Origin: Candidatus Dojkabacteria bacterium
GTDB lineage: Bacteria; Patescibacteriota; Dojkabacteria; JAFGLO01
Assembly (NCBI GenBank): GCA_016927995.1
Contig: JAFGLO010000011.1
Span: 391-64,390 of the forward strand
Length of the DNA stretch: 64,000 nucleotides
Reading direction: 5' to 3'
Shown here: positions 28,547 to 59,804 of the stretch, piece after piece
How the letters are laid out: each line of letters begins with the position of its first letter
How positions within the stretch are numbered: the first letter of the stretch is position 1
The notes under the pieces: generated by a model
What the model was told of the DNA's origin: nothing
Seen by the model: only the letters and a program-made list of their open reading frames with translations
The model's database searches: none
Program-made: the position numbers and the translations under genes

Positions 28547-29154
28547 TATATTGATTTAATAAGTTCAAATAAGGCATGGCGCTCTATTTTATCTAGTATA
28601 CCTATATCGAGACGGTACTCTTCGGTTGCATTAATAAGTTTTGTTTTGTTTCTCAAGGTATCGATTGGTATTCGATAATATAAGTAATCAAATATGGCTT
28701 TGTAAGGGCTTGCAATGCTTATTTTAAATTCTTTATTTAATATTATGAATCCATTAAACAGTTGAGCTTTTATGCTTTTGTAGTGGAAAATTCCGATCCT
28801 ATTTGTAAACTTACGTGTTGCTTTTGGGGTAACAGATGTTATAACTGAGGATATTCCCTCTGTAAGAATTCCATAGTATGATAGTGCGCTTTCCATTGAT
28901 ATGTAGGATGGTTCAACCAACTTATTTCCTACCATATAGCTGTACATTAGATTTGATTTGTGTGCGTCAAAGTATTTTTTTGTCGTATAAAAATTACGCT
29001 TTAGGCTTAAGATCTCTTTGTTTTTTATGCTTCGCTGGATATAGGTATTTATGGTTGTGGTGGGAATTGATAAGCGATCTGCAGAGACTAAAAGACTCTC
29101 TTTTGTGAAATACGGTGAATTTTCAAACTGTGAAAAAAAGGACAGCCTTTTCAT
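28546..29154 (-). CDS. AbiEi-family antitoxin / transcriptional regulator
   Basis: The conserved AbiEi core is SYISMESALSYYGILTE. It lies immediately upstream of the AbiEii gene. Confidence 0.7.
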   Translation of the reverse strand: MKRLSFFSQFENSPYFTKESLLVSADRLSIPTTTINTYIQRSIKNKEILSLKRNFYTTKKYFDAHKSNLMYSYMVGNKLVEPSYISMESALSYYGILTEGISSVITSVTPKATRKFTNRIGIFHYKSIKAQLFNGFIILNKEFKISIASPYKAIFDYLYYRIPIDTLRNKTKLINATEEYRLDIGILDKIERHALFELIKSI

Positions 29155-29206
29155 TTACGTTTTAATACAAATTTGTATTATATTGTAAATAAACGTTATT
29201 GTTTTG

Positions 29207-29446
29207 TCAAGTATTTTTCCTTTGGTTATACCATCTTCTAAAAAGCTCAATTGCAAATAAAACTGAATCGTCGGTTTGACCGACAAACGGTGTAAAGTCC
29301 GGGATTATATCAAGCGGCCAGATAAGATAAATTATGGCGACGATTAGTAGCCAGTTTTCTTTAAGAAAGTTTTTAATCTTCATTTTTCCAATATACTCCA
29401 TCACGATTAAATACATATTATCATGCCTGTGATTAAACCGCCACAT
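29207..29446 (-). CDS. DUF1232 (YkvA-like) small membrane protein
   Basis: The DUF1232 motif is LIWPLDIIPDFTPFVGQTDD. Confidence 0.6.
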   Translation of the reverse strand: MWRFNHRHDNMYLIVMEYIGKMKIKNFLKENWLLIVAIIYLIWPLDIIPDFTPFVGQTDDSVLFAIELFRRWYNQRKNT

Positions 29447-29510
29447 TTGACAAAAGGCTTTAGATTGTGATATTGTTTCTGTAAGTAACTAAATACAGTA
29501 ACAAAGAGAA

Positions 29511-30116
29511 ATGAGATACGTTGATTTAAAGACAAAACTGAAAGAAATTGTTGTATTTAGTCTTAACGATATAAGACAATGGGATCCTTCTTTCTATAGA
29601 AATCGGTTAATTGAATGGTTAGATAAAAGATATATAATCAGATTACGTCGAGATAGATATATGTTTTCTGATACTGATATCTTTGAATCTAGGCTTTTTC
29701 ATATAGCGAATCGAATATATTCTCCTTCTTATTTATCACTTGAAACGGCATTATCTTATTATGGACTTATTCCGGAAACTGTTTATTCTATAACCTCAGT
29801 TACCACAAGAAAGACAAACGAATTTGAAAATAATTTGGGGAAATTTATGTATAGAACGGTAAATTCAAACTTATTTTGGGGTTATGACATAGTGCATGGC
29901 TCTCAGGTTGCAGAAATAGAAAAGTGCATTTTAGATTATTTTTATTTGAATCCAAATATTGATAATGAATCTGATTTTTTTGAACTAAGGTTTAATGGTG
30001 AAGATTTTTTGAAAAGATACTCAAAGGAAAAGTTTAATAAATATCTTAAAATTTTTGATAATAAGGCATTAAATAGTAGAGTAGATAAATTCATGAGGTT
30101 TTTAAAAAATGCTTGA
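29511..30116 (+). CDS. AbiEi-family antitoxin (second copy, divergent orientation)
   Basis: It contains SYLSLETALSYYGLIPE, paralogous to the 28546..29154 gene. Confidence 0.7.
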   Translation: MRYVDLKTKLKEIVVFSLNDIRQWDPSFYRNRLIEWLDKRYIIRLRRDRYMFSDTDIFESRLFHIANRIYSPSYLSLETALSYYGLIPETVYSITSVTTRKTNEFENNLGKFMYRTVNSNLFWGYDIVHGSQVAEIEKCILDYFYLNPNIDNESDFFELRFNGEDFLKRYSKEKFNKYLKIFDNKALNSRVDKFMRFLKNA

Positions 30117-30882
30117 TATTAAAGATATTGCAAAATATTTTGATGGAAGCCAGTATATAAGTCCTCGACATATGCTGAGGGAATATTTGCAGTATAAGAT
30201 CCTAGATCTATTTGTAGATAGTAAAATTGGTAATAAAATATCATTTCTTGGAGGTACGTGTATTCGAATTGTACATAATAGTTTTAGATTTTCAGAGGAT
30301 CTGGACTTCGATAATTTTAGTTTATCTTATGAGGAATTTATTGAAGCTTCAAAAACAATAAAGCGAGGTTTAAGCCTGGAAGGATTTGAAGTTGAAATCA
30401 GAAATATCAAAAAAGGAGCATATCATTGTAATATTAAATTCCCAGAATTACTTTATAAAAATAAACTTACTCCATTGCAATCAGAAAAGATTCTGATTCA
30501 AATTGATACTTTATCACATGGCTTTACCTATAAACCCGATGTATTTTTACTTAATAAGTTTGGTGTTATAAGAAATATTTTAGTTACACCTACTGACATT
30601 CTTTTAGCTCAGAAAATTTACGCATTGTTTAATAGAAAGCGTCCAAAAGGTAGGGATTTTTTTGATGTGATTTTCTTATTAGGTTTCACAAAGCCTAATT
30701 ATGAGTATCTTGATTACAGACTTAATATTAATAAGCCGGTTGATTTAAAGGGGTACATTTTAGAAAAAAGTGAAGGTTTAGATTTTAAAGCTCTTGGAAA
30801 GGATGTTTCTCCATTTTTATTAAACTTAGAGGATGTAAGAAAGGTTGAAAGGTTTAGGGATGTGATTGGGAGTGTTTTATAG
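30109..30882 (+). CDS. AbiEii-family nucleotidyltransferase toxin (second copy)
   Basis: It contains FLGGTCIRIVHNSFRFSEDLDFD. It overlaps the upstream antitoxin by 8 nt. Confidence 0.75.
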   Translation: MLDIKDIAKYFDGSQYISPRHMLREYLQYKILDLFVDSKIGNKISFLGGTCIRIVHNSFRFSEDLDFDNFSLSYEEFIEASKTIKRGLSLEGFEVEIRNIKKGAYHCNIKFPELLYKNKLTPLQSEKILIQIDTLSHGFTYKPDVFLLNKFGVIRNILVTPTDILLAQKIYALFNRKRPKGRDFFDVIFLLGFTKPNYEYLDYRLNINKPVDLKGYILEKSEGLDFKALGKDVSPFLLNLEDVRKVERFRDVIGSVL

Positions 30883-32125: not shown

Positions 32126-33121
32126 TTAGCCAAGAAGAAGTTTAAGCTCTTCGTATAGTTTATCGTTTAGCTCAAGTTTTCCTGATTTTAGGCAGGCCTG
32201 CCTAAGTTTTTGCGATTGCTCTCCTGGATAAAATATCTCTTTTACGCCTTTTTGCTTTGGAGAATTCTTAACTTCATTTATTAAAGATTCAACATCAGCT
32301 TTAAAGTCTTTTATGGATCGAAATATGGTTGGATCTATAAGAATAAAGAAAGAACCCCAGCCGCCTTTAATATTGTAACCGCATCGGGAGGTTGTTAATG
32401 CTCCCCCAAGGATTTCCACAATAAATGCGATTCCCGAGCCCTTGTGATCGGCAATAGGTAGTAACCCACCTTCCATTGATGCTTCGGGACTATTTGTTGG
32501 GTTCCCGTCTTTATCGATTGCAACGTTATCGGGTATTTCCTTTCCTTCGGCCTTTGCGAGAAGTAAGTGACCCCATGTTATTTTGCTTGACGACATGTCT
32601 AATATCAAAGGTATCCCGTTTGTTGGAATTCCAACGGTAAATGGATTTGTTCCAAAGATTTCTTTTATTGAGCTAAATGGTACAAGTCCACCCGGTGAGT
32701 TATTGAACCCGATAAAAATAATGTTATTTTCGGTGGCTTTGCGTGCATACTGTCCGATTAATCCCGAAATTGGTGCTGTATTTGTTACCCCAACGGCAAC
32801 AATTCCAGATTCTTTTACTTTGTTAAGTCCTAATTCAAGTGCTTTATTTATAACATAAAGGCCTGGTTTCTTTTGTCCGTTAACTAATATTGATACGGGT
32901 GTTTCTTTTTCTATAAAGATATCTTTTCCGCCTACAATGATTTTACCCTGCTGAACTTTTTCTATTAAAACGGGTATGCGTATAAAGCCGTGTGTTTTTT
33001 TGTTTGTGAGCTCGCCTTCAAGACAATTTTCGATACAGTACTGTGCTTCTTCTTCTGAAAATCCGGTTTTTGTCAATATTTTGGTTCCTAGGTCTGTTGC
33101 TTCTTTTATTGATATGATCAT
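32126..33121 (-). CDS. Malate/L-lactate/sulfolactate dehydrogenase family (Ldh_2) oxidoreductase
   Basis: The N-terminus reads MIISIKEATDLGTKILTKTGFSEEEAQYCIENCLEGEL...THGF and the Ldh_2-family architecture follows. Confidence 0.7.
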   Translation of the reverse strand: MIISIKEATDLGTKILTKTGFSEEEAQYCIENCLEGELTNKKTHGFIRIPVLIEKVQQGKIIVGGKDIFIEKETPVSILVNGQKKPGLYVINKALELGLNKVKESGIVAVGVTNTAPISGLIGQYARKATENNIIFIGFNNSPGGLVPFSSIKEIFGTNPFTVGIPTNGIPLILDMSSSKITWGHLLLAKAEGKEIPDNVAIDKDGNPTNSPEASMEGGLLPIADHKGSGIAFIVEILGGALTTSRCGYNIKGGWGSFFILIDPTIFRSIKDFKADVESLINEVKNSPKQKGVKEIFYPGEQSQKLRQACLKSGKLELNDKLYEELKLLLG

Positions 33122-33166: not shown

Positions 33167-34180
33167 TTATTTAGTAAGCTCGATGACTTTTTGCCAGATT
33201 TCGTCATCAACGTCAACAGTTCCTAATTCGGTTGCTTTTCTTAATCGTTCAAGATTATTATCTCCAGGTACAAGAACCGTTTCTCCTTTTTTAGGCTTTT
33301 GATTCCTTATAACTATATTAAACTCCGATACTTCTTTCTTAAATGAATCTGTGGAATTAAATGCATTAATATCAATCACGATTAAAAACCCGCCGTGTTC
33401 TTCATTTACATAGGTTGGATTCATTTTATTACTTAATTTTGCCCCAACCAAAGCTCCTGTCATTACTTCAATAAGGTAGTTAATGTTATACCCTTTATAA
33501 TTTGCTCCCATTGGAAGAATATTTGAAGTTCCATCTTCGGCTAAAGCTTTGTTTACATCCCTTGTTACATTTCCCTCGCAATCAACTGCTGAATTTTCAC
33601 GCAGTTCTTTATTTTCTTTTTTACAGTTACGTATTTCAAAGTATGGAATTTGAGAAGTTGCCATGTCTATAACAATCTCTCCTTCATTTGCTGGGAAAGC
33701 GTATGAAATTGGATTGGTTCCTAAAAGTCCTTGTGTTCCGTTAAATGGGATAACTCCTGATGGACCTCCATTATATCCAGCAATGGCAAAATACCCTCTT
33801 TTGGCAAGACCTTGAGTCCACGTGTGAAGCGTATGCATTCCTCCTGAGTTATCAAGTCCTAAAATGGAAATACCTGTTTTTTGAGCTTTTTCTATGAGTT
33901 TGTCATGAATCCATTTAATTTTAAAAGTCATTGGGAGGTTATGAAAATCAAGATGTAGTAAGCTTGGAAGCTCCTTTTTTACTTCTATTTCATTTCCTTT
34001 GTATTTTTCTTGTCGCTCTGTATCTGAAATAACTTCGTCTTTTAATACATTACATCTTGGATGTTTTCTAATGTATGCTTCAGATATTTCCTCTGCAAAA
34101 TATTTTGCCTCTTCTGATGAGACGTACTTAAGGGCAATTATTTGAAGATTAGTTTTTAGCTCGGTTATGCTTACTTGCAT
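33167..34180 (-). CDS. Ldh_2-family oxidoreductase (paralog)
   Basis: It has the family's HTLHTWTQG...GTNPISYAFP core. About 80% aa identity to the disrupted copy at 38.4-39.4 kb. Confidence 0.7.
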   Translation of the reverse strand: MQVSITELKTNLQIIALKYVSSEEAKYFAEEISEAYIRKHPRCNVLKDEVISDTERQEKYKGNEIEVKKELPSLLHLDFHNLPMTFKIKWIHDKLIEKAQKTGISILGLDNSGGMHTLHTWTQGLAKRGYFAIAGYNGGPSGVIPFNGTQGLLGTNPISYAFPANEGEIVIDMATSQIPYFEIRNCKKENKELRENSAVDCEGNVTRDVNKALAEDGTSNILPMGANYKGYNINYLIEVMTGALVGAKLSNKMNPTYVNEEHGGFLIVIDINAFNSTDSFKKEVSEFNIVIRNQKPKKGETVLVPGDNNLERLRKATELGTVDVDDEIWQKVIELTK

Positions 34181-35464: not shown

Positions 35465-36514
35465 TTAATCTTTGGACGACTTAATTTTTGTCTTTAGGTC
35501 ATCTTGTAGTTTCTTTATTAGTTGCTTTTCAAAGTCGCTTTCAATTTTTTGTGTTTTATTAAATTTAATATATTCAGAAATTGCTTTATTTTGAGCGATA
35601 TTCATTGAAATCGAGCCCTTCCCATCTAAAATCTTGTACTCATTAAACTCAAGAAACTTATCAACACTCTTAGCAAATTGTACCATTGTCAACGTTTTCT
35701 TGCTCTCAATTACGTTTTCAATATAGTCGAAGAAGCCGGAAACAGCTCGCTCAAGTTTTCTTATCTCTTTTTCTGACAAATAGTTCTTGGCAACCACTAT
35801 ATCGGATTTTAAAATACGTCCTTTGGGTGAATCTTTCCAAGTAGTTAAGCCCATGTATGGTTTCTTTTTATCGGCGTTAGAATGAATAATCTCTGCTGCG
35901 GTTTGTCCGGTTATAGCATAATGAAATTTGTTTTGAATCGTTGCAAAAAAGTCCTTTGTGATACGTGAGTTTGGATTGTAATCAATACTGCACTCCTGGA
36001 AAATGTCTGTGATTTGAAGATATATTCTACGTTCGCTTGATCGAATTGATCGGATACGCTCTAAGAGTTCTTTAAAATAATCCTTGCCGAAGTACCTGCC
36101 ATTACTCAACCTATCATCGTCCATTGCAAATCCTTTGATTATGTACTCTTTTAGTCGTTCTGTTGCCCAAATTCTAAATCTTGTTGCTTGTGAAGAGTTA
36201 ACCCTATAACCGACCGAAATTATTGCATCGAGGTTATAAAACTCGATTCTTCTGGAAACTTTGCGCATTCCCTCGTTTTGAACTATCCGGAATTTCCGGA
36301 TGGTTGAATCTCGTTGTAATTCTCCGCTTAAATATATGTTTTTTAAATGTTCGTTAATTGTTCTAACGTCAACACCGAATAGATCTGCCATTCTCTTTTG
36401 AGTTAGCCATATGTTCTCATTCGCAAAAAATACCTCCACCTTGATTTCTCCATCTGGTGCCGTATATAACAGGAATTCATTTAGTTCTTGTTTTATTGAA
36501 AGAGTATTCTTCAT
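35465..36514 (-). CDS. RhuM-family virulence protein
   Basis: The conserved core is RKFRIVQNEGMRKVSRRIEFYNLDAIISVGYRVNSSQATRFRIWATERLKEYIIKGFAMDDDRL. Confidence 0.75.
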   Translation of the reverse strand: MKNTLSIKQELNEFLLYTAPDGEIKVEVFFANENIWLTQKRMADLFGVDVRTINEHLKNIYLSGELQRDSTIRKFRIVQNEGMRKVSRRIEFYNLDAIISVGYRVNSSQATRFRIWATERLKEYIIKGFAMDDDRLSNGRYFGKDYFKELLERIRSIRSSERRIYLQITDIFQECSIDYNPNSRITKDFFATIQNKFHYAITGQTAAEIIHSNADKKKPYMGLTTWKDSPKGRILKSDIVVAKNYLSEKEIRKLERAVSGFFDYIENVIESKKTLTMVQFAKSVDKFLEFNEYKILDGKGSISMNIAQNKAISEYIKFNKTQKIESDFEKQLIKKLQDDLKTKIKSSKD

Positions 36515-38354: not shown

Positions 38355-39367
38355 TTAGTTATCTAGAATTTTAACTTTATTCCAAATGTCTTCTTCAATT
38401 TCAACCATTCCAGATTTATTAACTTCGTCAAGTCTATTAAGATTATTATCTCCTGGCACAATGACATGTTCTCCTTTTTTTGGTCTTTGTTGGCGAATTT
38501 CTCTGTTGAACTCTGAAATTTCATTTTTAAAAGATTGAATACTGCCGAAAGCCTCAATATTTATTACTATAATGAATCCTCCATGATCCTCATTTACATA
38601 TCCTGGATCCATCTTGTTGCTCAACTTAGCCCCTACAAGAGCTCCAGTCATTATTTCAATTAGATAGTTTATATTATACCCTTTGTAATTGCCGCCCATA
38701 GGTAAAATATTTGAAGTACCGTCTTCTGCTAATGCTTTATTTGCATCTCTAGTTACATTTCCTTCTGTATCAACCGCTGAATTTTCTCTTAAATCTTTAT
38801 TATCTTTTTTACAATTACATATTTCGAAATATGTGATCTGGGATGTGGCCATGTCAACGACGATTTCTCCTTCTGACGTCGGGAAAGCGTATGAGATCGG
38901 ATTCGTTCCAAGTAATCCGCAGGTTCCATTGATGGGGACAACACCCAAAGGACCCCCATTATATCCTGCTAATGCAAAATAACCTCTCTTTGCAATTCCT
39001 TGTGTCCATGTATGAAGTGTATGCATTCCACCTGAATTATCAAATCCAAGAATACTAATCCCTGTTGTACTTGCTTTTTCTATGAGCGTATCGTGAATCC
39101 ATTTTATCTTGAATGTCATTGGAAGATTATGAAAGTCTATGTGTAATAGGCTGGGCATATCTTGTACGATTTCTATTGCATTCATCTTATATTTTTCTTG
39201 TCGCTCTGTATCCGATAGGATCTCATCTTTAGTACATTTGATCTAGGATATTTTCTGACATAAGCTTCGGATAGTTCTTTTGAAAAGTACTCAGCTTCTT
39301 CTTCGGAAACATATTTTAGTGCTACTTTCCGTAGTTTATCTTGCAACTCATCTAATTTAACTTGCAT
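38355..39367 (-). pseudogene. Ldh_2-family paralog disrupted by a 1-bp deletion (split into 61-aa and 276-aa ORFs)
   Basis: Nucleotide alignment to the 33167..34180 paralog shows one missing base around 39215-39240 (aaagatgagatcctatcgg versus aaaagacgaagttatttcag). It could instead be an assembly error. Confidence 0.55.
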
Positions 39368-41753: not shown

Positions 41754-41827
41754 TGGGCGTGCCTGGACTCGGACCAGGGACCCCAGTCTTATCAGGACTG
41801 TGCTCTAACCAGCTGAGCTACACGCCC
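41754..41827 (-). tRNA. tRNA-Ile (GAT)
   Basis: Folded by hand: GGGCGUG-UA-GCUC AGCUGGUUA GAGC-A-CAGUC CUGAUAA GACUG-GGGUC-CCUGG UCCGAGU CCAGG-CACGCCC-A. Confidence 0.85.
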
Positions 41828-43672: not shown

Positions 43673-44194
43673 CTAGTTATTACCGTTAAAAATATCCTTA
43701 TACATTCGCCACATAATATAAAATCCGAGAATAACCTGAGCAATATAGTAAGGCACGACCATAAATGAGGGTAACCCAAACGGATTCCAGCGATAAAGCT
43801 CGTACACCTGGGGCACGCCATATTTTTCATATAGAATGTAAGGGATCCACGTTATTATACAGGTTCCCATTAAAAGCTGCGAAATTGCGTGAATAAAAAT
43901 AATAAGCATAACGCCAAGAAGTAGATAATCACCTAAATGTCTTGTTTGCTTGGGGAAAAGACCACGGCAACATGCCGGTATAACTAAAGTCCATCCAAGT
44001 ATAGTTACGACTTCATGAAAGGTATCGGTTGCCTTGCCGAATGATTGCACAAGTGTTTTGGTATCGGTCGTATTTATGTTTATTAAAAACTCAAGCCCCC
44101 AGTAGCCAAAACAAATTAATAGAAACACACCGGTCCATTTGGCAAGCGTAGTTAAAAATGCTGCAAACTCTTTTGACGTTATATTGTTTTTCAT
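43673..44194 (-). CDS. Hypothetical integral membrane protein (about 5 TM)
   Basis: Judged from its hydrophobicity pattern only. Confidence 0.35.
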   Translation of the reverse strand: MKNNITSKEFAAFLTTLAKWTGVFLLICFGYWGLEFLININTTDTKTLVQSFGKATDTFHEVVTILGWTLVIPACCRGLFPKQTRHLGDYLLLGVMLIIFIHAISQLLMGTCIITWIPYILYEKYGVPQVYELYRWNPFGLPSFMVVPYYIAQVILGFYIMWRMYKDIFNGNN

Positions 44195-44303: not shown

Positions 44304-44648
44304 ATGAAGAAAACCTGGAAATATGCATATAACATATTATTTTGGGTATACATAGTTTTTTTTATAGCAATGTCGTTCGACATTGACATCAAAGACAACT
44401 TCTGGAGAGGCGTAGGAGGCTTTTTAATTCACAATATTCCAACAGTAATACTTTTGGTTGCTCATTTCGCCACAATAAAAAATTATAAGGTTCGTAGCAT
44501 ATTGTTTTTAATACTTGCAATTGCTTCCGTAATATTCTTCAGAACTTATATAAATCTGGCTGTATTCCTGTATGTTACTGTCCCAATACTTGCACTAAGC
44601 GGATTCTCCTATATTCAGAGTAAAACGATCATAAACCCAAATAACTAA
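44304..44648 (+). CDS. Hypothetical integral membrane protein (about 4 TM)
   Basis: Judged from its hydrophobicity pattern only. Confidence 0.3.
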   Translation: MKKTWKYAYNILFWVYIVFFIAMSFDIDIKDNFWRGVGGFLIHNIPTVILLVAHFATIKNYKVRSILFLILAIASVIFFRTYINLAVFLYVTVPILALSGFSYIQSKTIINPNN

Positions 44649-44665
44649 GCTAAAAACCATTTATA

Positions 44666-45529
44666 TTGATGGACGTAAAACAGGACCTGATTAGTTTGAT
44701 TTCAAAGGATTCGAAAGTACTTTGTTTGTTGGCACCTTCCTTTGTGGCAGAGTTTGATTATCCCGACATTATATATACACTTAGAGCATTGGGGTTCGAC
44801 AATGTCGTGGAACTTACCTTCGGCGCAAAAATGATAAATCACGGCTATTACGAAATATTAAAGTCGGACAGTGACAGTCGAACATGGATTGCATCACCCT
44901 GCCCAACTTTAGTGCAATTAATTCGTACAAAATATCCGCATCTTGTTAGGAATCTGGTTCCTATACATTCCCCTATGGGTGCAATGGCTTTAATATGTAA
45001 TAAGTTTTTTCCCGGATATAAAAAAGTTTTTGTCGGACCATGCATAACCAAAAAATTCGAAGCAAAAGAAATAGGAACAGTCGATCTGTCAATAACTTTT
45101 AAAGAACTGCTTGAAATACTTGACCAAGTAAAACCTGTTATTAAAGAAGAACACAAGCAAACATTCAATAAATTTTACAATGACTATACAAAGATTTATC
45201 CAATTTCCGGAGGATTATCGGAGACCTTACACTACAGCAAAATTCTTGATGATAAAGACATTCTTGTGACTGACGGAATTAGAGAGATAACTCAGGTCTT
45301 AAATGGTTTCAAGAATGGATTCTACGAAAAGTATAAATTTCTTGACATATTAACCTGTAAGGGCGGATGCATAAATGGACCGGGTATGTGCGGAACAAGA
45401 CTTCCGGCCGAACGTAAACAAAGAATTATTGGCTATAGGGATTTTGCAAGGACATCAGAACGGGACATTGGTCGTGCCGGCACGAAAGTTGTTGTTGAAG
45501 ACATAGATTTTACGCGAAAGTTTGAGTAG
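44666..45529 (+). CDS. [FeFe]-hydrogenase large-subunit C-terminal (H-cluster) domain protein, with SPCP in place of the SCCP motif
   Basis: All three H-cluster motifs are present in order. L1 is IASPCPTLV (canonical TSCCPxW). L2 is VGPCITKKFEAKE (canonical MPCxxKxxE). L3 is LDILTCKGGCINGPGM (canonical ExMACxGGCxxGGGQ). There is no N-terminal ferredoxin-like F-cluster domain. Confidence 0.6.
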   Translation: MMDVKQDLISLISKDSKVLCLLAPSFVAEFDYPDIIYTLRALGFDNVVELTFGAKMINHGYYEILKSDSDSRTWIASPCPTLVQLIRTKYPHLVRNLVPIHSPMGAMALICNKFFPGYKKVFVGPCITKKFEAKEIGTVDLSITFKELLEILDQVKPVIKEEHKQTFNKFYNDYTKIYPISGGLSETLHYSKILDDKDILVTDGIREITQVLNGFKNGFYEKYKFLDILTCKGGCINGPGMCGTRLPAERKQRIIGYRDFARTSERDIGRAGTKVVVEDIDFTRKFE

Positions 45530-45691: not shown

Positions 45692-46813
45692 TTACTCGTC
45701 GGTAACTGTTCCCATTTTTTTGAATCGTTCTTCTTCAAAATCAATATTTTTTGCCATTTCTTCTTTCGAGCTCATTGTGTAATAGGTCGAGCGACCGTGA
45801 CCATATTGGTTAATTAGCTTGCGTTCAGACATTTCCGTAAGGTCCCGAAAGGCTGTCATAAAAGAAACTCCCATCATATCTGTATATTCTTTTCGTGTTA
45901 TTTTCAATTTTCGTTTAAGATAAGTAAGAGCTCTAAGTTGTCGAGAGTTAAGCCCTAATAACATTTTACGTTTGTTCTGAACCTTTTCCTTTTCAATTTG
46001 GATCATTTGATTATTAAGGTTCTGAATATCCATAGATACTCCACGTACAAATCTTTCTATCCATGAGGTAAGATCATTGGATTCTCTGCTTGCAATTAAC
46101 GCCTCAAAGTATTCCTCTTCGTACGTATAAAAGTGAAGACTTGTTGGAATAAGTCCGTTCTGCCATATATTAAGCTCAGAAAATAAAAGTTCAACGGTAG
46201 CAAGAGTTGTAAGCTGGTTGGCCGCAAGAAACGGAGCATACTGAAAAAGCTCAAATACGGTAACAGCTGTTTTTATTAAAGGATGCACCAAAAACCTTGT
46301 TTCAGTAACCCAGGAAAAAAGATCGTTTAGGTGGTTTTGGATATTTATTTGTGATAGCTCTTTGTTGTGATAAGATTCCCAGCGATCGTAATTTGATACG
46401 GGGCTTTCACCTTGGTTACGATATCTACCACCATTCCAGGAATCAACCCAGTTGTTTGTCAAGAGTTTATTAAGATGAACAATTGTGGCCGCCGAAAAGC
46501 TCATGTATCTGTCTCTTTTAACTTGTTTTATAAATTCAATTGCGTTTCGATAATTTACAAGTACAACTTTTGGCTCTTTAAGTACGTTAATTTCTTTACC
46601 CTTAAATACTTTTTCTGCATCTTTCATTGTAATATTAAGTCCAATAAGTTTTCCCACATAGAAAAGGTTTTCGGTACGTTTTTGCTCGTAAAGCTGTTTT
46701 TTCTGTCTTGCTGGAAGTGGAAGGTTAGTTATTTCCTTAAAGGCAATTTCAAAATTGACAATATGATGTAAAACCTTGTTTGTTATGTAGTATTTCGGGG
46801 TGTACATTAGCAA
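45692..46813 (-). CDS. Fic/DOC-family-like protein with a degenerate active-site motif and a C-terminal winged-HTH
   Basis: The architecture and C-terminal wHTH (LNSRQLRALTYLKRKLKITRKEYTDMMGVSFMTAFRDLTEMSERKLI) match long Fic proteins. At the position of HPFx[DE]GNGR the sequence is HPLIKTAVTVFELFQYAPFLAANQ, with no GNGR. Confidence 0.5.
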   Translation of the reverse strand: MLMYTPKYYITNKVLHHIVNFEIAFKEITNLPLPARQKKQLYEQKRTENLFYVGKLIGLNITMKDAEKVFKGKEINVLKEPKVVLVNYRNAIEFIKQVKRDRYMSFSAATIVHLNKLLTNNWVDSWNGGRYRNQGESPVSNYDRWESYHNKELSQINIQNHLNDLFSWVTETRFLVHPLIKTAVTVFELFQYAPFLAANQLTTLATVELLFSELNIWQNGLIPTSLHFYTYEEEYFEALIASRESNDLTSWIERFVRGVSMDIQNLNNQMIQIEKEKVQNKRKMLLGLNSRQLRALTYLKRKLKITRKEYTDMMGVSFMTAFRDLTEMSERKLINQYGHGRSTYYTMSSKEEMAKNIDFEEERFKKMGTVTDE

Positions 46814-53725: not shown

Positions 53726-54370
53726 GCTTTATTGTACTACGGTTTAGAAAATTTGGATAATTCCTGCCAAAGATTTTCTTCAATCTCGACTTCGCCCGAT
53801 GTTTCAATTTGTTTTGTTAAGCGAAATCGAGTAGAGTTTTCGAAGAACAACCGACAGCTATAGATTGAGTACTTATTACAGAGACCACGTCTCTAAAGGT
53901 AAAACTACTCGTACGAGTATATTATGCCCCAACCTTTGATGACGTTACAAACAAGACGATCTATGGTATAATACACTTTCAATAGATAAGCTGACCAAAC
54001 ATCTATAGTGATCGAAGAGTTTATCAGAGCCGAAAAAGAAAGTGTTATAAGTTGCCTTGGGGAAAATTCTCGTTTAGTTTCTGTAGTTAATGTACAAGGT
54101 TTGCGTGAGGGAATCGAAGATCCGAACAGTATCATGGTGACTAGAGGGTCTATTGACCCTCAAGATCCAAACTGCTGGAGTATTATTGTTGAAAAAGATA
54201 GTCAGAATTTTACCATTGTAAGATCTCCTCAAGGTGATCTTCAAGTTGTTACAGAGGAGAACAACGTTGTTCCTTTCGATGGAGATTCAGAATTTGCACA
54301 AGCTATATTTAACCAAATAGGAGTAAGGACTCCTAATCCATTGGAAGCCTCAGCACTGGCCTCAATAGGA

Positions 54371-55561
54371 ATGCTTACTTCTCCTACGGAACGATCAAGA
54401 AGAGATTTATTAAAAATTGTTGGAATTTTAGCAACTTTTGTGGGACTTACCTGTTGTACCTTTGGTGGTAGTGGGAATTATGAACCCACAATAGTCGTCA
54501 ATGGAACTGCTGTCCCCACAAAAGTTGAAACAGTCGTAACACCTTCTCCCGAGTCTTCACCCGTACAAAGGGCAGAACTTATAGCAAAAACCGAACCGTG
54601 GCAAATATTGCCTTCTCTTTCAAGTGAAATAAATGCTATTAATGTAAAATTTGTTAACAGGGATGAATATATAGCTCTTGCGAGAGAAGATGGGATAATA
54701 ATTCCGGATGGATATGAAAGCAGCTTTTTAGAAGAAAGCGATGCAAAATTACTAACTAATCTTAGAGTTATAGTAATTAATCGTGACGCTCCAACATTTA
54801 CCACACAGATGGAAGGATTTTCAACTGAAACTGAAAAAGACAATTTCCTTACAAGATTACTTACACATGTTATAAAGCACGAGGTAAGTCACGGCGTAAG
54901 CGAAACAAAACCTGTTTCCGATGAGCTAAAGCGTGCTGTAGCCGAAAACCCTTTAACCAATGCATTTACGGCTATAACTACATTTGGTTATTCCATAGGA
55001 CTGGATGGTGGCTACCAATTAAGCGGTCTCGAGGAAGTTGTGGTTACGCACTTTAATACATTGAACTGTGGTTCAACTTGTGTGATTGATCAAATCTCAC
55101 TATCGTATATAGGAACCGAAATGATAGAGCCTGTCAATACATTCCTTGCCAACACCCTTGATGTGGAGGCAGGGTCCTTTGTCAACTATGTCATACATAA
55201 GGCAACTGATGGTATAGATGGCTTAATTGATCGCTTGGTTATAAGATATAATTGTGTTTCTGGGATTGACAGAAGAGGTATAACAAAAATGGTACTTGAT
55301 TTTGTTGTTGCCACAACTTTTGCACATACAAGTTACCTTTATTGGAGAAAATTATCCAATGGCGACGCTACTCAAAGAGAGGATGCTGATCAATATAAAG
55401 AACGATATGATTTATTTATCAAAACCATGAATGATATTGCCACGGCTGTTAAGAATAGAAGTACTGAATACACTCCACTTGCAAACAACAGTCGAACATT
55501 TATGGCTAATCTTATTTCAGGTTATTCTTCTTCTGCACACAAGCTTACTATGAGAAGTTAA
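54371..55561 (+). CDS. Tat-signal lipoprotein-like putative zinc metalloprotease (HExxH)
   Basis: From the internal Met it reads MLTSPTERSRRDLLKIVGILATFVGLTCC, a twin-arginine motif plus a lipobox-like LTC. HEVSHG lies downstream. The in-frame 121-codon extension to 54008 is probably not translated. Confidence 0.5.
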   Translation: MLTSPTERSRRDLLKIVGILATFVGLTCCTFGGSGNYEPTIVVNGTAVPTKVETVVTPSPESSPVQRAELIAKTEPWQILPSLSSEINAINVKFVNRDEYIALAREDGIIIPDGYESSFLEESDAKLLTNLRVIVINRDAPTFTTQMEGFSTETEKDNFLTRLLTHVIKHEVSHGVSETKPVSDELKRAVAENPLTNAFTAITTFGYSIGLDGGYQLSGLEEVVVTHFNTLNCGSTCVIDQISLSYIGTEMIEPVNTFLANTLDVEAGSFVNYVIHKATDGIDGLIDRLVIRYNCVSGIDRRGITKMVLDFVVATTFAHTSYLYWRKLSNGDATQREDADQYKERYDLFIKTMNDIATAVKNRSTEYTPLANNSRTFMANLISGYSSSAHKLTMRS

Positions 55562-57063: not shown

Positions 57064-57844
57064 ACGCATCCTTCTGGAAAAATACTTTGGAATTCCAATC
57101 TGGTTCGAACGAAACAAAATCTTTTCCGGAGGCGATTACGAGGTTACAAAACTTTCTGACATCGTACTTTCCGAAATAAACACTCAAACAATTAACAGTG
57201 AGCTTATGTATCCGGAAACAATCGGCACAAGATATTCGTTAAGCGTTAATGAAAATTCCTTGTCTCTGGTTCAGAATTCTTTAAAAAACGAAATCATCAT
57301 GTTACATGGGACCCTTTTAGGAATAGAATACGCAAAAACCACCGGAAGAAGAGCTACCGGAAAGTATTCCACCTTGATTCAGGTTATGTATGGATCTGCA
57401 TTCATAATTTTACACAACAGCTTCTTTGACAAGGCTGAATTTACCTTTAAGACCGGCTCTGTCTATATAGTAAAGGTAAAGGTCGGACAGTGCTTCGTTG
57501 TTCCACCTAATATGGGATATACTGTCGTAAATTCACAACTATCTCCACTTGTATTTCACAAAATAACGGCAAAAGATTCTGTCGAGGAACCTGTATTTGA
57601 TAACCACAAGGGCGCAGCTTATTATGTAATTTATAAAAACAGCAAACCGGAAAAGGTTATTAATCCGTACTTTAGAGATGTGTCAAAACCTAAAGAGATC
57701 TCCTCGATTAAGTTAACATCGACTTTTTTCAATAAATGTCTTACAATTCCAGATATATTTAACTGTCTAATGTGCAAAGACCTTGATCCGAAGTTAAGAT
57801 TTGTTCTTGGAATTGATGAATTTGTTATCGACGACATGTTCTAA
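57056..57844 (+). CDS. Hypothetical protein (possibly cupin-fold)
   Basis: It is a 262-aa ORF with no confident motif. Confidence 0.4.
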   Translation: MNKRILLEKYFGIPIWFERNKIFSGGDYEVTKLSDIVLSEINTQTINSELMYPETIGTRYSLSVNENSLSLVQNSLKNEIIMLHGTLLGIEYAKTTGRRATGKYSTLIQVMYGSAFIILHNSFFDKAEFTFKTGSVYIVKVKVGQCFVVPPNMGYTVVNSQLSPLVFHKITAKDSVEEPVFDNHKGAAYYVIYKNSKPEKVINPYFRDVSKPKEISSIKLTSTFFNKCLTIPDIFNCLMCKDLDPKLRFVLGIDEFVIDDMF

Positions 57845-57868
57845 AAAGCAAAGTAGAGACATTTCCCT

Positions 57869-57946
57869 GTTTCAATGGTTTAAAAGACAAGTCAAAGACA
57901 TGTCTCTGTTTCAATGGTTTAAAAGACAAGTCAAAGACATGTCCCT
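57869..57946. repeat. Two tandem 39-bp units (gtttcaatggtttaaaagacaagtcaaagacatgtc[t/c]ct) plus a partial third copy upstream, each ending in the palindrome AGACATGTCT
   Basis: Seen in the sequence. The ATG of the likely downstream start codon (57939) is inside the last unit. Confidence 0.75.
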
Positions 57947-59804
57947 ACTTAGGGGTTTTACTATTTCACTGCTTTGTTACTTCACTATTTCACTGTTTAC
58001 CACTCCTGTCTTTGCCTCGTCGGGAATTCAAAAGCAAATGAGTATAACCGTTGATGTTAAAGAAGCCGGCGATATAAATATTTCCATGCAAACATCATTC
58101 TTTATTACGGAAGGAGTATCATTGCTTCGTGAATATAACTTGGCGTTTACAGAAAAAACATTTACTAATTTTGCCGCAGTGTCAGCCGGAGGGGAAGCAC
58201 TTGACTATTCAATAAAAGAAAACGACGACAACACATTGATAACAATCAGCCTTCCGAATATTCGATTAAATCCAGGCGGAAGTTATGCAATTAACGTCTC
58301 TTATACGGTTCCTGCGGGGCTTGAGTCAATTGGAGGTATATATAAATTATTGGTCCCAGTATTTAATACAGAGAACACAACAATAACATCTGTACTTGTT
58401 AGGTATCCTTCAAACATTGGAAATCTACTTTATTGTTCTACAGAATGTACAACCACAAATACAAACGAACTAACAGAAGTCTACTTAAATAACATCAAGT
58501 CAACAAATCCATTTATTCTTATTGGAAGTTCTCAGATATACACACTAAACCTTGTTATGGACGTTGAAAATAATTCGGCTCAGGTAAACAATCTAAATAC
58601 CTATATTCCAATAGAAAGCTGTACCCAGAAAAATATTGTAAACTTTTTTGCGCCGACACCAAGTTCAATTAGTACAGATATATATGAAAATAATAAGCTA
58701 AATGTTGTTTTAAATCCTTACTCGAAACAGATTATTCAATACAGTGGACAGGTACAACTTACTAGCAGTGTATCAAAATGTAAAGTGCCAACGGTTGCAG
58801 CACTTGATATCGAAGAGTTAACAAGATTAAGATTACTCCTGGAAACGTATTTTCCGAATTCAGATACTTCATTAGATCTAATTCAAAAATTTTACCAAAA
58901 GATTATATCGGAGGGCGAAATCAACGCTCAAACAGGACTAGAGAAAGATCCCGGCACAAATATTGAATTATTCTTAAAAGACGAACTACATATTTTTACT
59001 CAGCGGGAGCTTTTGGAAATGCTGCTTTTCGTATACTCTGCATTTGATTATCCTGCCTATATTTCTTATGGTTTTTTGTATCCTTACTATGTTTCGGAGC
59101 CTATTGGCGTAAACTATTCCTGGCTTACAGTATATGTAACCGATATTCCCAAAGTTGTCGATCCTTTCATGGAAATCCAAAGCGGGATCTCCGGTTTCGA
59201 CGTCAATTTGTTAGATAGAATTGTAATTTATAATACTCAACAATTATACGACCAAAGTTATTCCTGGAGAAATCTTGAGACAAATTTTGTTTCTATTGGC
59301 TACCAAAACTTTACAACAAATTCTAACTTGTACCTTACTGTAAACTTTCCTGAATCCGTACAAGCCGGTGTTTCACATACGGCAACATTGTCCGTCCGAA
59401 ATAATGGAAATACACTATTTAAGAATCTAGAGATATCAATCTTGTCTACAGAAGGACTATTATTTGAATTTTCAGATGATACGAATGTTATTCCATTACT
59501 TTTTCCGGGTCAAAGTATTACAATTCCGATAACAATTAATTCAACTAAAGGAACATTTTCTAAACTTCACGAAGTACTTGTAACATACACTGCCGATGAT
59601 TTTACCGGTCAAACACACACATACAGCATACTTGTCGAACAAAAACCAATAAATATTCTAATTGCTATACTTGTCACCGCGTGCATAGGCAGTGCGGGTG
59701 TTCTTGTTTTTGAAAGGGTGGTAAAATATTTTAATAAGAATAAAGGGGAAAAAACACAAACCCCTTACGACCCATTACTTGGATTTGGTTCAAAAAATGA
59801 TTAA
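57939..59804 (+). CDS. Secreted hypothetical protein with signal peptide and C-terminal TM anchor
   Basis: The signal peptide is MSLLRGFTISLLCYFTISLFTTPVFASSG. The C-terminal TM is NILIAILVTACIGSAGVLVF. The start is chosen after the tandem repeats. The ORF-track start at 57801 would translate the repeats. Confidence 0.5.
   Translation: MSLLRGFTISLLCYFTISLFTTPVFASSGIQKQMSITVDVKEAGDINISMQTSFFITEGVSLLREYNLAFTEKTFTNFAAVSAGGEALDYSIKENDDNTLITISLPNIRLNPGGSYAINVSYTVPAGLESIGGIYKLLVPVFNTENTTITSVLVRYPSNIGNLLYCSTECTTTNTNELTEVYLNNIKSTNPFILIGSSQIYTLNLVMDVENNSAQVNNLNTYIPIESCTQKNIVNFFAPTPSSISTDIYENNKLNVVLNPYSKQIIQYSGQVQLTSSVSKCKVPTVAALDIEELTRLRLLLETYFPNSDTSLDLIQKFYQKIISEGEINAQTGLEKDPGTNIELFLKDELHIFTQRELLEMLLFVYSAFDYPAYISYGFLYPYYVSEPIGVNYSWLTVYVTDIPKVVDPFMEIQSGISGFDVNLLDRIVIYNTQQLYDQSYSWRNLETNFVSIGYQNFTTNSNLYLTVNFPESVQAGVSHTATLSVRNNGNTLFKNLEISILSTEGLLFEFSDDTNVIPLLFPGQSITIPITINSTKGTFSKLHEVLVTYTADDFTGQTHTYSILVEQKPINILIAILVTACIGSAGVLVFERVVKYFNKNKGEKTQTPYDPLLGFGSKND

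What the first reader, a model, noticed from the sequence alone, without database searches (positions are those of the whole stretch)
44666..45529. Minimal H-cluster-only [FeFe]-hydrogenase-like protein with Cys-to-Pro change at the proton-transfer cysteine
The 287-aa protein carries all three H-cluster signature motifs (SPCP, GPCxxKKxEA, CxGGCxxGPG). It lacks accessory F-cluster domains. The canonical first Cys of TSCCP, the proton-relay cysteine, is replaced by Pro. No HydE, HydF or HydG maturase is seen in the window. It could be a sensory or non-catalytic hydrogenase-like protein, or a hydrogenase-domain relic in an organism of fermentative ancestry. Either is unusual for a small reduced genome and worth phylogenetic placement.
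Basis: partly seen in the sequence, partly recalled or inferred. Interest (0 to 1): 0.62.

Follow-up and report, generated by a model that had tools for sequence, protein, structure and literature searches.

The report
Ultraminimal [FeFe] hydrogenase in a CPR bacterium
This gene encodes a stripped-down, catalytic-core-only [FeFe] hydrogenase of the "ultraminimal" type recently shown to be active in tiny DPANN archaea, here in a Dojkabacteria (CPR) bacterium; its missing proton-relay cysteine is a fixed family trait and not a defect.

Summary
ORF 44666-45529 (+; probable start ATG 44669) encodes a 286/287-aa protein that is a single full-length Fe_hyd_lg_C domain (E 3e-39). All four H-cluster cysteines, K358, E361 and the AP(S) motif sit at CpI-homologous positions, and Pro78 replaces the relay Cys299. 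No accessory clusters are present and no maturases lie in the window.

The protein is not a relic or a one-off. It belongs to a large, highly conserved clade of H-domain-only proteins (about 265-310 aa) shared by Patescibacteria and DPANN archaea. The archaeal members are the published "group E ultraminimal" hydrogenases, one of which (Fm) binds the H-cluster and evolves H2. Pro is fixed in 120/120 bacterial homologs, and the archaeal ones carry V, P or A, never Cys.

The active-site triad (P/G/L in place of C299/M353/M497) resembles sensory groups C/D, but there is no signalling domain. In relatives the gene lies beside a POR-POR-ACD operon, which points to ferredoxin-dependent fermentative H2 evolution. 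This contig carries none of those partners. The maturation route and the proton path remain unknown. I rate it a new (bacterial) member of a known kind, of moderate interest.

The parts
44666..45529 (+). hydA-like CDS: H-domain-only (ultraminimal, group E-type) [FeFe] hydrogenase, 287 aa from TTG 44666; probable true start ATG 44669 (286 aa)
   Evidence: ORF list. PF02906 E 3e-39, full length. Identical NCBI protein is 286 aa. AF2 pLDDT 87.7, pTM 0.86. Foldseek TM 0.72-0.78 to HydA, CbA5H and CpI.
44732..44740 (+). A23-P24-S25 = CpI A230-P231-S232 (backbone H-bonds to a CN ligand of [2Fe]H in group A enzymes)
   Evidence: Profile alignment to TmHydA/CpI. P in 120/120 and S in 116/120 bacterial homologs; P 115/115 in archaeal ones.
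44846..44848 (+). Y61 at the position of CpI E279 (second residue of the canonical proton pathway); near-invariant Tyr in the clade
   Evidence: Alignments. Y in 117/120 bacterial and 115/115 archaeal homologs.
44894..44905 (+). Motif 1, S77-P78-C79-P80 (= CpI S298-C299-C300-P301): Pro replaces the relay Cys; C79 is a [4Fe-4S]H ligand
   Evidence: P78 in 120/120 bacterial homologs; archaeal V52/P32/A27/T3/N1, never Cys.
45035..45064 (+). Motif 2, G124-P-C126-I-T-K129-K-F-E132-A (= CpI M353-P-C355-T-S-K358-K-F-E361-A): Cys ligand, CN-binding Lys and its Glu partner kept; M353 replaced by Gly
   Evidence: C, K and E are invariant in all four sequence sets; G in 119/120 bacterial homologs.
45176..45202 (+). 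Y171-N-D-Y-T-K176-I-Y178-P179: clade-specific invariant loop replacing CpI 410-YSGAGAIFG-418; Y178 sits at the F417 position
   Evidence: Invariant in 120/120 bacterial and 115/115 archaeal minimal enzymes, not conserved in multidomain relatives. The loop region has lower AF2 confidence, pLDDT about 75-77.
45341..45385 (+). Motif 3, L226-D-I-L229-T-C231-K-G-G-C235-I-N-G-P-G (= CpI ..E495-V-M497-A-C499-H-G-G-C503..): two Cys ligands including the bridging Cys; M497 replaced by Leu
   Evidence: C231 and C235 in 120/120, L229 in 120/120 bacterial homologs.
44304..44648 (+). 114-aa, about 4-TM DUF7670 ORF ending 17-20 nt upstream of hydA on the same strand; possibly co-transcribed, with no demonstrated functional link
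   Evidence: Pfam PF24709 E 1e-8. Spacing. The same pairing occurs on an independent contig, L023. Not found beside hydA in any other locus. Unrelated to the conserved hydrogenase-linked membrane family.

Best explanation
The gene encodes a bacterial (Candidatus Dojkabacteria, Patescibacteria/CPR) member of the ultraminimal, H-domain-only [FeFe] hydrogenases (group E type).

Proposed working: the roughly 33-kDa monomer binds one [4Fe-4S] cluster through C79, C126, C231 and C235. C235 bridges to a [2Fe] subcluster held by K129, E132 and the A23-P24-S25 backbone. With no accessory clusters, the [4Fe-4S]H subcluster takes electrons directly from a soluble reduced ferredoxin, produced mainly by a two-subunit pyruvate/2-oxoacid:ferredoxin oxidoreductase. 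The enzyme then reduces protons to H2. This regenerates oxidised ferredoxin so that acetyl-CoA can be converted to acetate plus ATP.

Protons do not arrive through the group A Cys-Glu-Ser-Glu-Arg chain, which is absent as a whole. They must use another route, still unknown. One candidate is the clade-invariant Y-N-D-Y-T-K loop and Y61, or a short water path in the thin scaffold.

Shown here: homology, ligand conservation, fold, clade membership and gene linkage in relatives. Inferred: cofactor loading in vivo, direction of catalysis, identity of the electron donor in this organism, and the proton route.
For: Domain and ligands. Fold: AF2 pLDDT 87.7, Foldseek E 1e-13 to 1e-15 and TM 0.72-0.78 to [FeFe] hydrogenases.

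Family: 920 homologs at E below 1e-5. The top 120 are all 268-307 aa with PF02906 only, and the named ones are Dojkabacteria or Patescibacteria. DPANN homologs show 39-42% identity.

Conservation: the four Cys, K358, E361 and P231 are essentially invariant in the bacterial, archaeal and multidomain sets.

Phylogeny: the bacterial clade including the query is monophyletic in 96/100 bootstraps. All short forms group together against multidomain relatives in 85/100.

Biochemistry of the clade: archaeal group E enzymes average 286 residues. Fm carries 4.2 Fe per protein, gives H-cluster FTIR states after [2Fe]adt loading, and shows bidirectional catalysis biased to H+ reduction (PMC11216029).

Gene linkage: PORga-PORb-hydA lie co-oriented in four archaeal loci. 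A PORga-PORb-ACD operon lies 0-7 kb from hydA in six independent Patescibacteria contexts, including a Dojkabacteria genome. The paper also notes OFOR adjacency in archaea.

Native gene: GC 0.377 and GC3 0.347 match the contig. The window carries fermentative genes: iPGM, GPI and three Ldh_2 paralogs.
Against: No HydE, HydF or HydG is in the window or within 10 kb of hydA in any of the fetched loci. The two radical-SAM neighbours are TYW1 and AmmeMemoRadiSam.

POR, ACD, ferredoxin and the conserved hydrogenase-linked membrane protein are all absent from this 64-kb contig. The metabolic coupling is therefore inferred from relatives at 58-67% identity.

In group A enzymes, changes at C299 (other than to Asp) and the M497L change severely impair activity (PMC10055695). 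Enzymes with this triad (TmHydS, TamHydS) are slow.

The characterised enzyme Fm was not identified among my sequences, so its identity to this protein and its residue at the relay position are unknown. Archaeal relatives are about 40% identical. Activity in the paper was obtained only after artificial maturation.
Confidence: 0.65

Rival explanations
1. [4Fe-4S]-only redox or scaffold protein. Without HydEFG the protein never receives a [2Fe] subcluster in vivo. It would then act as a small iron-sulfur electron carrier or partner of POR, or in Fe-S handling in the manner of Nar1, and not as a hydrogenase.
For: No maturase genes are in the window or near hydA in 20+ loci. Only 5 of 130 hydrogenase-encoding archaeal genomes have a full HydEFG set, and the closed Fm genome has none (PMC11216029). 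Activity of the archaeal relative was shown only after chemical loading with [2Fe]adt.
Against: Residues that contact only the [2Fe] subcluster in group A enzymes are invariant across hundreds of sequences: K358, E361, P231/S232 and the bridging Cys geometry CxxGC. That is hard to explain if the pocket is never filled. The N-terminal ferredoxin-like Cys cluster that defines Nar1/NARFL is absent, with only 7 Cys and none in such a motif. Fm accepts the cofactor in a well-defined environment.
Confidence: 0.2
2. H2 sensor. Like group C/D HydS, the protein uses a slow, inhibitor-tolerant H-cluster to report H2 partial pressure and passes the signal to a separate partner protein.
For: The active-site triad is of the sensory type: C299 to P, M353 to G, M497 to L. 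Sensory enzymes carry Pro at this position in about 10% of cases, and Gly or Ser and Leu or Ser at the other two (PMC10055695 and PMC11803613). The nearest multidomain relatives (about 35% identity, 550-880 aa) look like HydS. The paper places group E as sister to group C.
Against: There is no PAS, kinase, phosphatase or other output domain and no accessory clusters. No regulator is conserved next to hydA. The conserved neighbours are POR, ACD and a transporter-like membrane protein. The downstream wHTH/Fic-like ORF is convergent and not conserved elsewhere. Fm is biased to H+ reduction, unlike TmHydS.
Confidence: 0.08
3. Decaying relic of an ancestral fermentative hydrogenase, no longer functional in this lineage.
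For: The usual partners (POR-ACD operon, linked membrane protein) are missing from this contig although the closest homolog keeps the membrane protein. A sibling Dojkabacteria genome (L003) carries only a 5'-truncated copy.
Against: The reading frame is intact, and all 25 tabulated functional and signature positions match the clade consensus. The same gene arrangement was recovered from an independent sample (L023). Composition is native. 64 kb is a small part of the genome, so the partners may lie elsewhere.
Confidence: 0.04

Closest known systems
Group E 'ultraminimal' [FeFe] hydrogenases of DPANN archaea (Greening et al., Cell 2024, PMC11216029; e.g. Fm from Ca. Forterrea multitransposorum)
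   Same: H-domain only, about 286 aa, with a single [4Fe-4S] plus the [2Fe] site. Loops are condensed. The canonical proton pathway and relay Cys are absent. The invariant YNDYTK loop is shared with the archaeal minimal enzymes. The genes are linked to 2-oxoacid:ferredoxin oxidoreductase, and HydEFG is usually absent. In my tree the short forms group together against multidomain relatives (85/100).
   Different: The host is a bacterium (Patescibacteria), whereas the paper describes group E only from archaea. Identity to archaeal members is about 39-42%. Pro is fixed at the relay position (archaea carry V, P or A). M353 is Gly here and Ser in archaea. The bacterial operon partner is ADP-forming ACD placed after POR. 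The reference enzymes Fm and Na were not in hand for direct comparison.
Group C/D putative sensory [FeFe] hydrogenases (TmHydS, TamHydS)
   Same: The relay Cys and both pocket methionines are lost: TmHydS has A131/G177/S267 and TamHydS has A137/S191/L291. Pro occurs at this position in about 10% of sensory enzymes. TmHydS has a Tyr (Y223) at the F417 position. These are the closest multidomain relatives by sequence.
   Different: There is no N-terminal ferredoxin-like clusters and no C-terminal PAS or cluster domain. The group D proton relay E252 is Leu here (L184, mapping together). The genomic context is metabolic (POR/ACD), not regulatory.
Group A prototypical [FeFe] hydrogenases (CpI, CrHydA1)
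   Same: The fold is the same (TM about 0.75), as are the four Cys ligands, K358, E361 and the AP(S) motif. CrHydA1 is likewise H-domain-only and ferredoxin-dependent.
   Different: The protein is 170 residues shorter than CrHydA1. C299, E279, S319, E282, R286, M353 and M497 are all replaced (by P78, Y61, V98, I64, S67, G124 and L229). Sequence identity is about 20%.
Nar1 / NARFL (eukaryotic hydrogenase-like CIA proteins)
   Same: These are hydrogenase-like proteins that keep the [4Fe-4S] cysteines and function without HydEFG.
   Different: The defining N-terminal ferredoxin-like cluster is absent here. The protein is prokaryotic, and the [2Fe]-contacting Lys and Glu are strictly conserved. 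No family model other than the hydrogenase models matched.

Membership tests
[FeFe]-hydrogenase catalytic (H) domain, Pfam PF02906 | Significant full-length match to the family profile | tested here: met
   E 3e-39, 135.5 bits (cutoff 22.1), profile positions 2-245 of 245. TIGR04105 matches with E 3.5e-39 over its H-domain part only.
[FeFe]-hydrogenase catalytic (H) domain, Pfam PF02906 | Four cysteines ligating [4Fe-4S]H, including the bridging Cys, at positions homologous to CpI C300, C355, C499 and C503 | tested here: met
   C79, C126, C231 and C235 align to them in phmmer and profile alignments. They are invariant in 120 bacterial homologs; among 115 archaeal homologs three are invariant and the C499 position is Cys in 114.
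[FeFe]-hydrogenase catalytic (H) domain, Pfam PF02906 | Second-sphere residues that hold the [2Fe] subcluster (CpI K358, E361, P231/S232) | tested here: met
   K129, E132, P24 and S25 are present, and essentially invariant in all sets.
[FeFe]-hydrogenase catalytic (H) domain, Pfam PF02906 | H-domain fold | tested here: met
   AF2 pLDDT 87.7. Foldseek top hits are all [FeFe] hydrogenases, TMq 0.72-0.78, E down to 2.6e-15.
[FeFe]-hydrogenase catalytic (H) domain, Pfam PF02906 | Binds the H-cluster and turns over H2 | not testable with these tools
   This needs expression, [2Fe]adt loading, FTIR and activity assays. It has been shown only for the archaeal relative Fm (PMC11216029).
Group A (prototypical) [FeFe] hydrogenase | TSCCP motif with relay Cys299 and the pathway E279, S319, E282, R286 | tested here: not met
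   The equivalent residues are P78, Y61, V98, I64 and S67.
Group A (prototypical) [FeFe] hydrogenase | Pocket methionines M353 and M497 | tested here: not met
   The equivalent residues are G124 and L229.
Group E (ultraminimal) [FeFe] hydrogenase | H-domain only, about 286 aa, no accessory Fe-S domains | tested here: met
   286/287 aa, one Pfam domain, 7 Cys with no cluster motif outside the H-cluster. The paper reports a mean of 286 residues.
Group E (ultraminimal) [FeFe] hydrogenase | Clusters with DPANN minimal enzymes and apart from multidomain groups | tested here: met
   NJ tree with 110 sequences: all short forms are monophyletic in 85/100 bootstraps. The YNDYTK signature is shared 100% with the Pacearchaeota/Nanoarchaeota proteins. 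This is a distance method only.
Group E (ultraminimal) [FeFe] hydrogenase | Clusters with the named reference enzymes (Fm, Na) in a model-based phylogeny with groups A-G | not tested
   Reference sequences were not retrievable: the paper's supplements are not held and Fm was not recognisable among named hits.
Group E (ultraminimal) [FeFe] hydrogenase | Archaeal (DPANN) host, as the group was described | tested here: not met
   The window is bacterial (ClpB/C, bacterial PheST, MurG). The identical protein is annotated Candidatus Dojkabacteria. The paper describes group E from archaea only.
Group E (ultraminimal) [FeFe] hydrogenase | Frequent adjacency to 2-oxoacid:ferredoxin oxidoreductase genes | tested here: not met
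   This is met in relatives. In this window no POR, ACD or ferredoxin was found by tblastn or motif scan.
Group C/D sensory [FeFe] hydrogenase (HydS) | N-terminal Fe-S cluster domain and C-terminal PAS or signalling domain | tested here: not met
   Single domain only.
Group C/D sensory [FeFe] hydrogenase (HydS) | Non-Cys residue at C299 and small or aliphatic residues at M353 and M497 | tested here: met
   The triad is P78/G124/L229. Literature frequencies are in PMC10055695.
Group C/D sensory [FeFe] hydrogenase (HydS) | Group D alternative proton relay (TamHydS E252 at the CpI V423 position) | tested here: not met
   L184 occupies that position, and Leu is found in 119/120 bacterial and 114/115 archaeal homologs.
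Nar1/NARFL hydrogenase-like proteins | Additional N-terminal ferredoxin-like Cys cluster; eukaryotic CIA context | tested here: not met
   There is no N-terminal Cys motif (Cys at 20, 79, 111, 126, 231, 235, 242), and the genome is bacterial.
HydEFG-dependent maturation | hydE, hydF and hydG present in the genome | not testable with these tools
   They are absent from the 64-kb window and from all hydA neighbourhoods examined. The rest of the MAG could not be fetched.

The most novel reading that the evidence does not exclude
Ultraminimal hydrogenases are not an archaeal speciality. They would be a shared module of the two reduced-genome radiations (CPR bacteria and DPANN archaea), exchanged between domains, matured without HydEFG, and supplied with protons through a new route built from the clade-invariant Y-N-D-Y-T-K loop and Y61 instead of the Cys relay. 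A conserved, unannotated membrane protein with an ECF S-component-like fold sits beside hydA in most relatives, though not in this window. It could take up a cofactor, a cofactor precursor or iron from the host or environment, which would explain how episymbionts that lack maturases load the enzyme.
Probability: 0.1. Interest if true: 0.8.

Novelty: new member of a known kind. Interest (0 to 1): 0.42.

Why it matters
If the protein is active, many CPR bacteria, which make up a large share of bacterial diversity, dispose of fermentative electrons as H2 using the smallest known hydrogenase scaffold. That bears on H2 budgets in anoxic groundwater and sediments. It also bears on syntrophy between ultrasmall cells and their hosts, and on how far an H-cluster protein can be pared down, which is relevant to enzyme engineering. 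The clade also offers a natural experiment in two open problems: how the H-cluster is assembled without HydEFG, and how protons reach the cofactor without the canonical cysteine relay. For this particular window the gain is modest, since it is one more member of that family, found without its usual partners.

Tried and rejected
(1) Retrieving the reference enzymes Fm and Na. The paper's supplements are not held, cluster look-ups returned no organism names, and an archaeal-profile search named only Pacearchaeota, Nanoarchaeota or 'archaeon'. Direct identity to the characterised enzyme is therefore unknown.

(2) Looking for maturases. The radical-SAM motif scan found none in the window. Two radical-SAM ORFs near hydA in relatives proved to be TYW1 and AmmeMemoRadiSam.

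(3) Testing whether the window's flanking membrane ORFs (43673-44194 on the minus strand, 44304-44648 on the plus strand) are diverged copies of the conserved hydrogenase-linked membrane protein. The result was no, by tblastn, hmmsearch --max and hhalign (probability 0.1%).

(4) Y178 (the F417 position) as the proton relay. The equivalent Y223F variant of TmHydS kept its activity, so this is not asserted.

(5) The group D relay. The E252-equivalent position is Leu here.

(6) Promoter and terminator scan around the gene. Counts did not exceed the shuffled expectation, and no Shine-Dalgarno sequence is evident.

(7) Literature search for Patescibacteria or CPR minimal [FeFe] hydrogenases. Nothing was found in the held library.

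(8) My first residue table was mis-registered by 4 residues because of alignment trimming. It was discarded and redone.

Full report
**1. What is in the sequence**

The ORF at 44666-45529 (+) is real. It reads 287 aa from a TTG. The identical database protein is 286 aa, annotated [quoted passage not shown], so translation most likely starts at ATG 44669.

- S77-P-C-P80
- G124-P-C-I-T-K-K-F-E-A133
- C231-K-G-G-C-I-N-G-P-G240

The protein matches Pfam Fe_hyd_lg_C over the whole profile (E 3e-39, 135.5 bits against a cutoff of 22.1). It also matches the H-domain portion of NCBIfam [FeFe]-hydrogenase models. It has seven cysteines, no ferredoxin-type motif and no second domain.

The window is bacterial: ClpB/C, bacterial PheS/PheT, MurG, iPGM. 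Its GC is 37%, and the gene's GC and GC3 match the contig.

**2. Residue-by-residue comparison with solved enzymes**

phmmer and a family profile against PDB sequences align the protein to CpI, HydABC HydA subunits, CbA5H, DdH and CrHydA1. The CpI-numbered map is:

| Role | CpI residue | This protein | Status |
|---|---|---|---|
| [4Fe-4S]H ligand | C300 | C79 | kept |
| [4Fe-4S]H ligand | C355 | C126 | kept |
| [4Fe-4S]H ligand | C499 | C231 | kept |
| Bridging ligand | C503 | C235 | kept |
| [2Fe] second sphere | K358 | K129 | kept |
| [2Fe] second sphere | E361 | E132 | kept |
| [2Fe] second sphere | P231 / S232 | P24 / S25 | kept |
| Proton pathway (relay) | C299 | P78 | replaced |
| Proton pathway | E279 | Y61 | replaced |
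| Proton pathway | S319 | V98 | replaced |
| Proton pathway | E282 | I64 | replaced |
| Proton pathway | R286 | S67 | replaced |
| Pocket methionine | M353 | G124 | replaced |
| Pocket methionine | M497 | L229 | replaced |
| Pocket | Q325 | M104 | replaced |
| Pocket | F417 | Y178 | replaced |

So the cysteine ligands and the residues contacting the [2Fe] subcluster are kept, while the whole group A proton pathway and both pocket methionines are gone.

An AlphaFold2 model built from a 33-sequence alignment is confident (pLDDT 87.7, pTM 0.86). Its best structural matches are all [FeFe] hydrogenases (TM 0.72-0.78, E down to 2.6e-15).

**3. It is a member of a large family, not a singular oddity**

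A search of 5.8 billion proteins found 920 homologs at E below 1e-5. The best 120 are all 268-307 aa, carry only PF02906 and are 56-67% identical. Those with names are Dojkabacteria or Patescibacteria.

Species-representative genomes gave Patescibacteria loci (56-66% identity) and DPANN archaeal loci (39-42% identity; Woesearchaeota and "archaeon"). An archaeal-weighted profile found hundreds more, named Pacearchaeota or Nanoarchaeota.

In a library clustered at 50% identity the whole bacterial clade collapses to one representative. It is followed by about 25 other short clusters (34-49% identity). After those come multidomain proteins of 550-880 aa (about 35% identity) with N-terminal ferredoxin motifs, which look like the sensory groups C/D.

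A neighbour-joining tree (110 sequences, 287 columns, 100 bootstraps) gave two results:
- The bacterial clade with the query is monophyletic in 96/100 replicates.
- All H-domain-only forms are monophyletic against the multidomain relatives in 85/100.

**4. The Pro is a fixed trait**

The relay position is Pro in 120/120 bacterial homologs. In 115 archaeal homologs it is V (52), P (32), A (27), T (3) or N (1), and never Cys.

The four Cys, K358, E361 and P231 are essentially invariant in all sets.

The loop Y171-N-D-Y-T-K176 is invariant in both the bacterial and the archaeal minimal enzymes but not in the multidomain relatives. It is therefore a signature of the minimal clade.

The literature shows that a non-Cys residue here is normal outside group A. 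In sensory hydrogenases the position is Cys in only 17%, Ala in about 43%, Pro in about 10% and Ser in about 10%. M353 is Gly, Ser or Thr in those enzymes, and M497 is Ser in TmHydS and Leu in TamHydS (PMC10055695, PMC11803613, PMC10407848).

**5. What is already known**

Greening et al. (Cell 2024, PMC11216029) defined the "ultraminimal group E" [FeFe] hydrogenases of DPANN archaea. Their key points:
- The enzymes average 286 residues and consist of the H-domain only.
- They have condensed loops and differ in their proton-transferring residues.
- Purified Fm held 4.2 Fe per protein.
- After [2Fe]adt loading, Fm gave H-cluster FTIR states.
- Fm catalysed both directions, with a bias to H+ reduction.
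- Most host genomes, including the closed Fm genome, lack HydEFG.

The paper presents group E as archaeal, monophyletic and sister to bacterial group C, and does not mention Patescibacteria. I found no paper in the held library that describes the bacterial clade. NCBI and JGI, however, already label relatives [quoted passage not shown].

**6. Genomic context and likely physiology**

Archaeal loci. In four archaeal loci the order is POR(gamma-alpha fusion), POR(beta), hydA, on one strand with overlapping ends, and an acetyl-CoA synthetase lies nearby.

Patescibacteria loci. In six independent Patescibacteria contexts an operon of POR(gamma-alpha), POR(beta) and ADP-forming acetyl-CoA synthetase lies 0-7 kb from hydA. 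It is usually convergent with hydA, and one context is a Dojkabacteria genome. This is the classical pyruvate to acetyl-CoA to acetate plus ATP module, which needs a sink for reduced ferredoxin. A ferredoxin-oxidising, H2-evolving hydrogenase fits that role.

This window. It carries fermentation-type genes (iPGM, a cupin-type GPI, three Ldh_2 paralogs). It has no POR, no ACD and no ferredoxin-like ORF. For this organism the coupling is therefore inferred from relatives.

**7. What remains unexplained**

Maturation. No HydE, HydF or HydG candidate exists in the window or near hydA in any locus. The two radical-SAM neighbours found are TYW1 and AmmeMemoRadiSam. The whole genome could not be searched.

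Proton supply. The group A pathway is absent. The group D relay (TamHydS E252) corresponds to Leu184 here. The Tyr at the F417 position was shown to be dispensable in TmHydS (Y223F). The invariant YNDYTK loop and Y61 are candidates by conservation alone.

Because of these gaps I hold the rival "[4Fe-4S]-only, non-hydrogenase" reading at about 0.2. The sensor reading lacks any output domain or conserved regulatory partner. The relic reading is contradicted by the intact, fully consensus-like sequence. A truly decayed copy is seen in a sibling Dojkabacteria genome, L003, which retains only residues 89-286.

**8. A lead outside the window**

Family and linkage. A membrane protein of 170-190 aa lies directly beside hydA in most relatives. 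It has no Pfam or NCBIfam match. These relatives include the closest homolog of the window's protein, an archaeon, a Daviesbacteria genome (where it overlaps the hydA start) and a Dojkabacteria genome. In one genome it overlaps the end of a 473-aa ferredoxin-domain, group A-type hydrogenase gene.

Fold. Its AF2 model (pLDDT 87.8) best matches ECF-transporter S-components: RibU, ThiT and 4hzu_S, with TM 0.55-0.64 and full-length coverage. The Foldseek E-values are weak, and there is no sequence-level support.

Relation to hyd6TM. It may correspond to the uncharacterised "hyd6TM" noted in the Cell paper.

Status in this window. It is absent here. The flanking membrane ORFs (a 173-aa ORF and a 114-aa DUF7670 ORF) are unrelated to it. 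The same local arrangement as in the window was recovered from an independent sample (L023).

**9. Verdict**

The gene is a bacterial member of the ultraminimal (group E-type) [FeFe] hydrogenases. The Cys-to-Pro change is the clade's normal state.

It is most likely a ferredoxin-dependent, H2-evolving fermentative enzyme (confidence about 0.65), with an unknown maturation route and an unknown proton path. I rate it a new member of a known kind, of moderate interest. The interest lies mainly in showing that this minimal enzyme is shared between CPR bacteria and DPANN archaea, and in the linked transporter-like protein.

Noticed in passing
L001:9412-9987, L004:8405-8950, L013:9420-9938, L016:9412-9966, L019:6001-6534, L020:10001-10513, L021:6001-6525, L022:1279-1785 (not in the window): An unannotated 170-190 aa multi-pass membrane protein family (no Pfam or NCBIfam match) lies directly beside [FeFe]-hydrogenase genes. 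Hosts include Patescibacteria and one DPANN archaeon, and in one genome the neighbour is a ferredoxin-domain group A-type hydrogenase. Its AF2 model best matches ECF transporter S-components (RibU, ThiT; TM 0.55-0.64; weak E-values). It may be the 'hyd6TM' of Greening et al. 2024.
   Followed up: partly
L003:9983-10597: A sibling Dojkabacteria genome (isolate Zod_Metabat.200) retains only residues 89-286 of hydA. Stop codons occur in all frames upstream, so this is a 5'-truncated remnant lacking the AP(S) and SPCP motifs.
   Followed up: partly
L010:334-1134: A hydA homolog on a contig labelled 'Candidatus Peribacteria' has in-frame TGA codons exactly at conserved Gly positions (for example G-P-C and C-x-G-G-C). 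This indicates genetic code 25 (UGA = Gly) and suggests a Gracilibacteria or Absconditabacteria-type organism.
   Followed up: no
P0130 (protein from the 50% representative library): A 4,122-aa predicted protein holds at least seven tandem copies of a group A-like H-domain, with repeated LMPCTVKKTE and VEIMMCEGGCMNG motifs every 444 residues. It could be a real giant repeat protein or an assembly artefact.
   Followed up: no
window 32126-33121 (-), 33167-34180 (-), 38355-39185 (-): Three paralogs of the Ldh_2 (type-2 malate/L-lactate dehydrogenase) family lie within 7 kb. The third lacks about 60 N-terminal profile positions.
   Followed up: no
window 27290-30882 and 35465-36514: Two AbiEii-type nucleotidyltransferase toxin genes (27290-28546 on the minus strand, 30109-30882 on the plus strand), each with an adjacent small ORF, and a RhuM-family gene lie in the lowest-GC stretch of the window (about 26-40 kb, GC 0.32-0.35). 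This looks like a defence or mobile island.
   Followed up: no
window 45692-46813 (-): The ORF convergent with hydA shows only weak matches to a Fic adenylyltransferase model (E 0.011) and to DeoR-type winged-helix domains at its C-terminus. It may be a degenerate Fic-like regulator. It is not conserved next to hydA elsewhere, apart from the near-identical contig L023.
   Followed up: partly
window 41754-41827 (-): ARAGORN calls a tRNA-Ile(GAT) here that the Rfam tRNA model did not report at gathering threshold. The other three tRNAs were found by both tools.
   Followed up: no
window 15988-17904, 18465-20378, 54008-55561, 57801-59804, 5701-10074: Several large ORFs (517-1457 aa) were left unexplained. 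Four have no Pfam match at all. The 1457-aa ORF (5701-10074) was not searched.
   Followed up: no
L021:3719-6840: On an 807-kb contig a group A-type hydrogenase (Fer4 + Fe_hyd_lg_C + Fe_hyd_SSU, 473 aa) sits inside a glycolysis gene cluster (TIM, GAPDH, PGK, FBA, PfkB). A NuoF-like gene, a thioredoxin-like gene and an 86-aa ferredoxin are alongside it. The arrangement is compact and HydABC-like.
   Followed up: no
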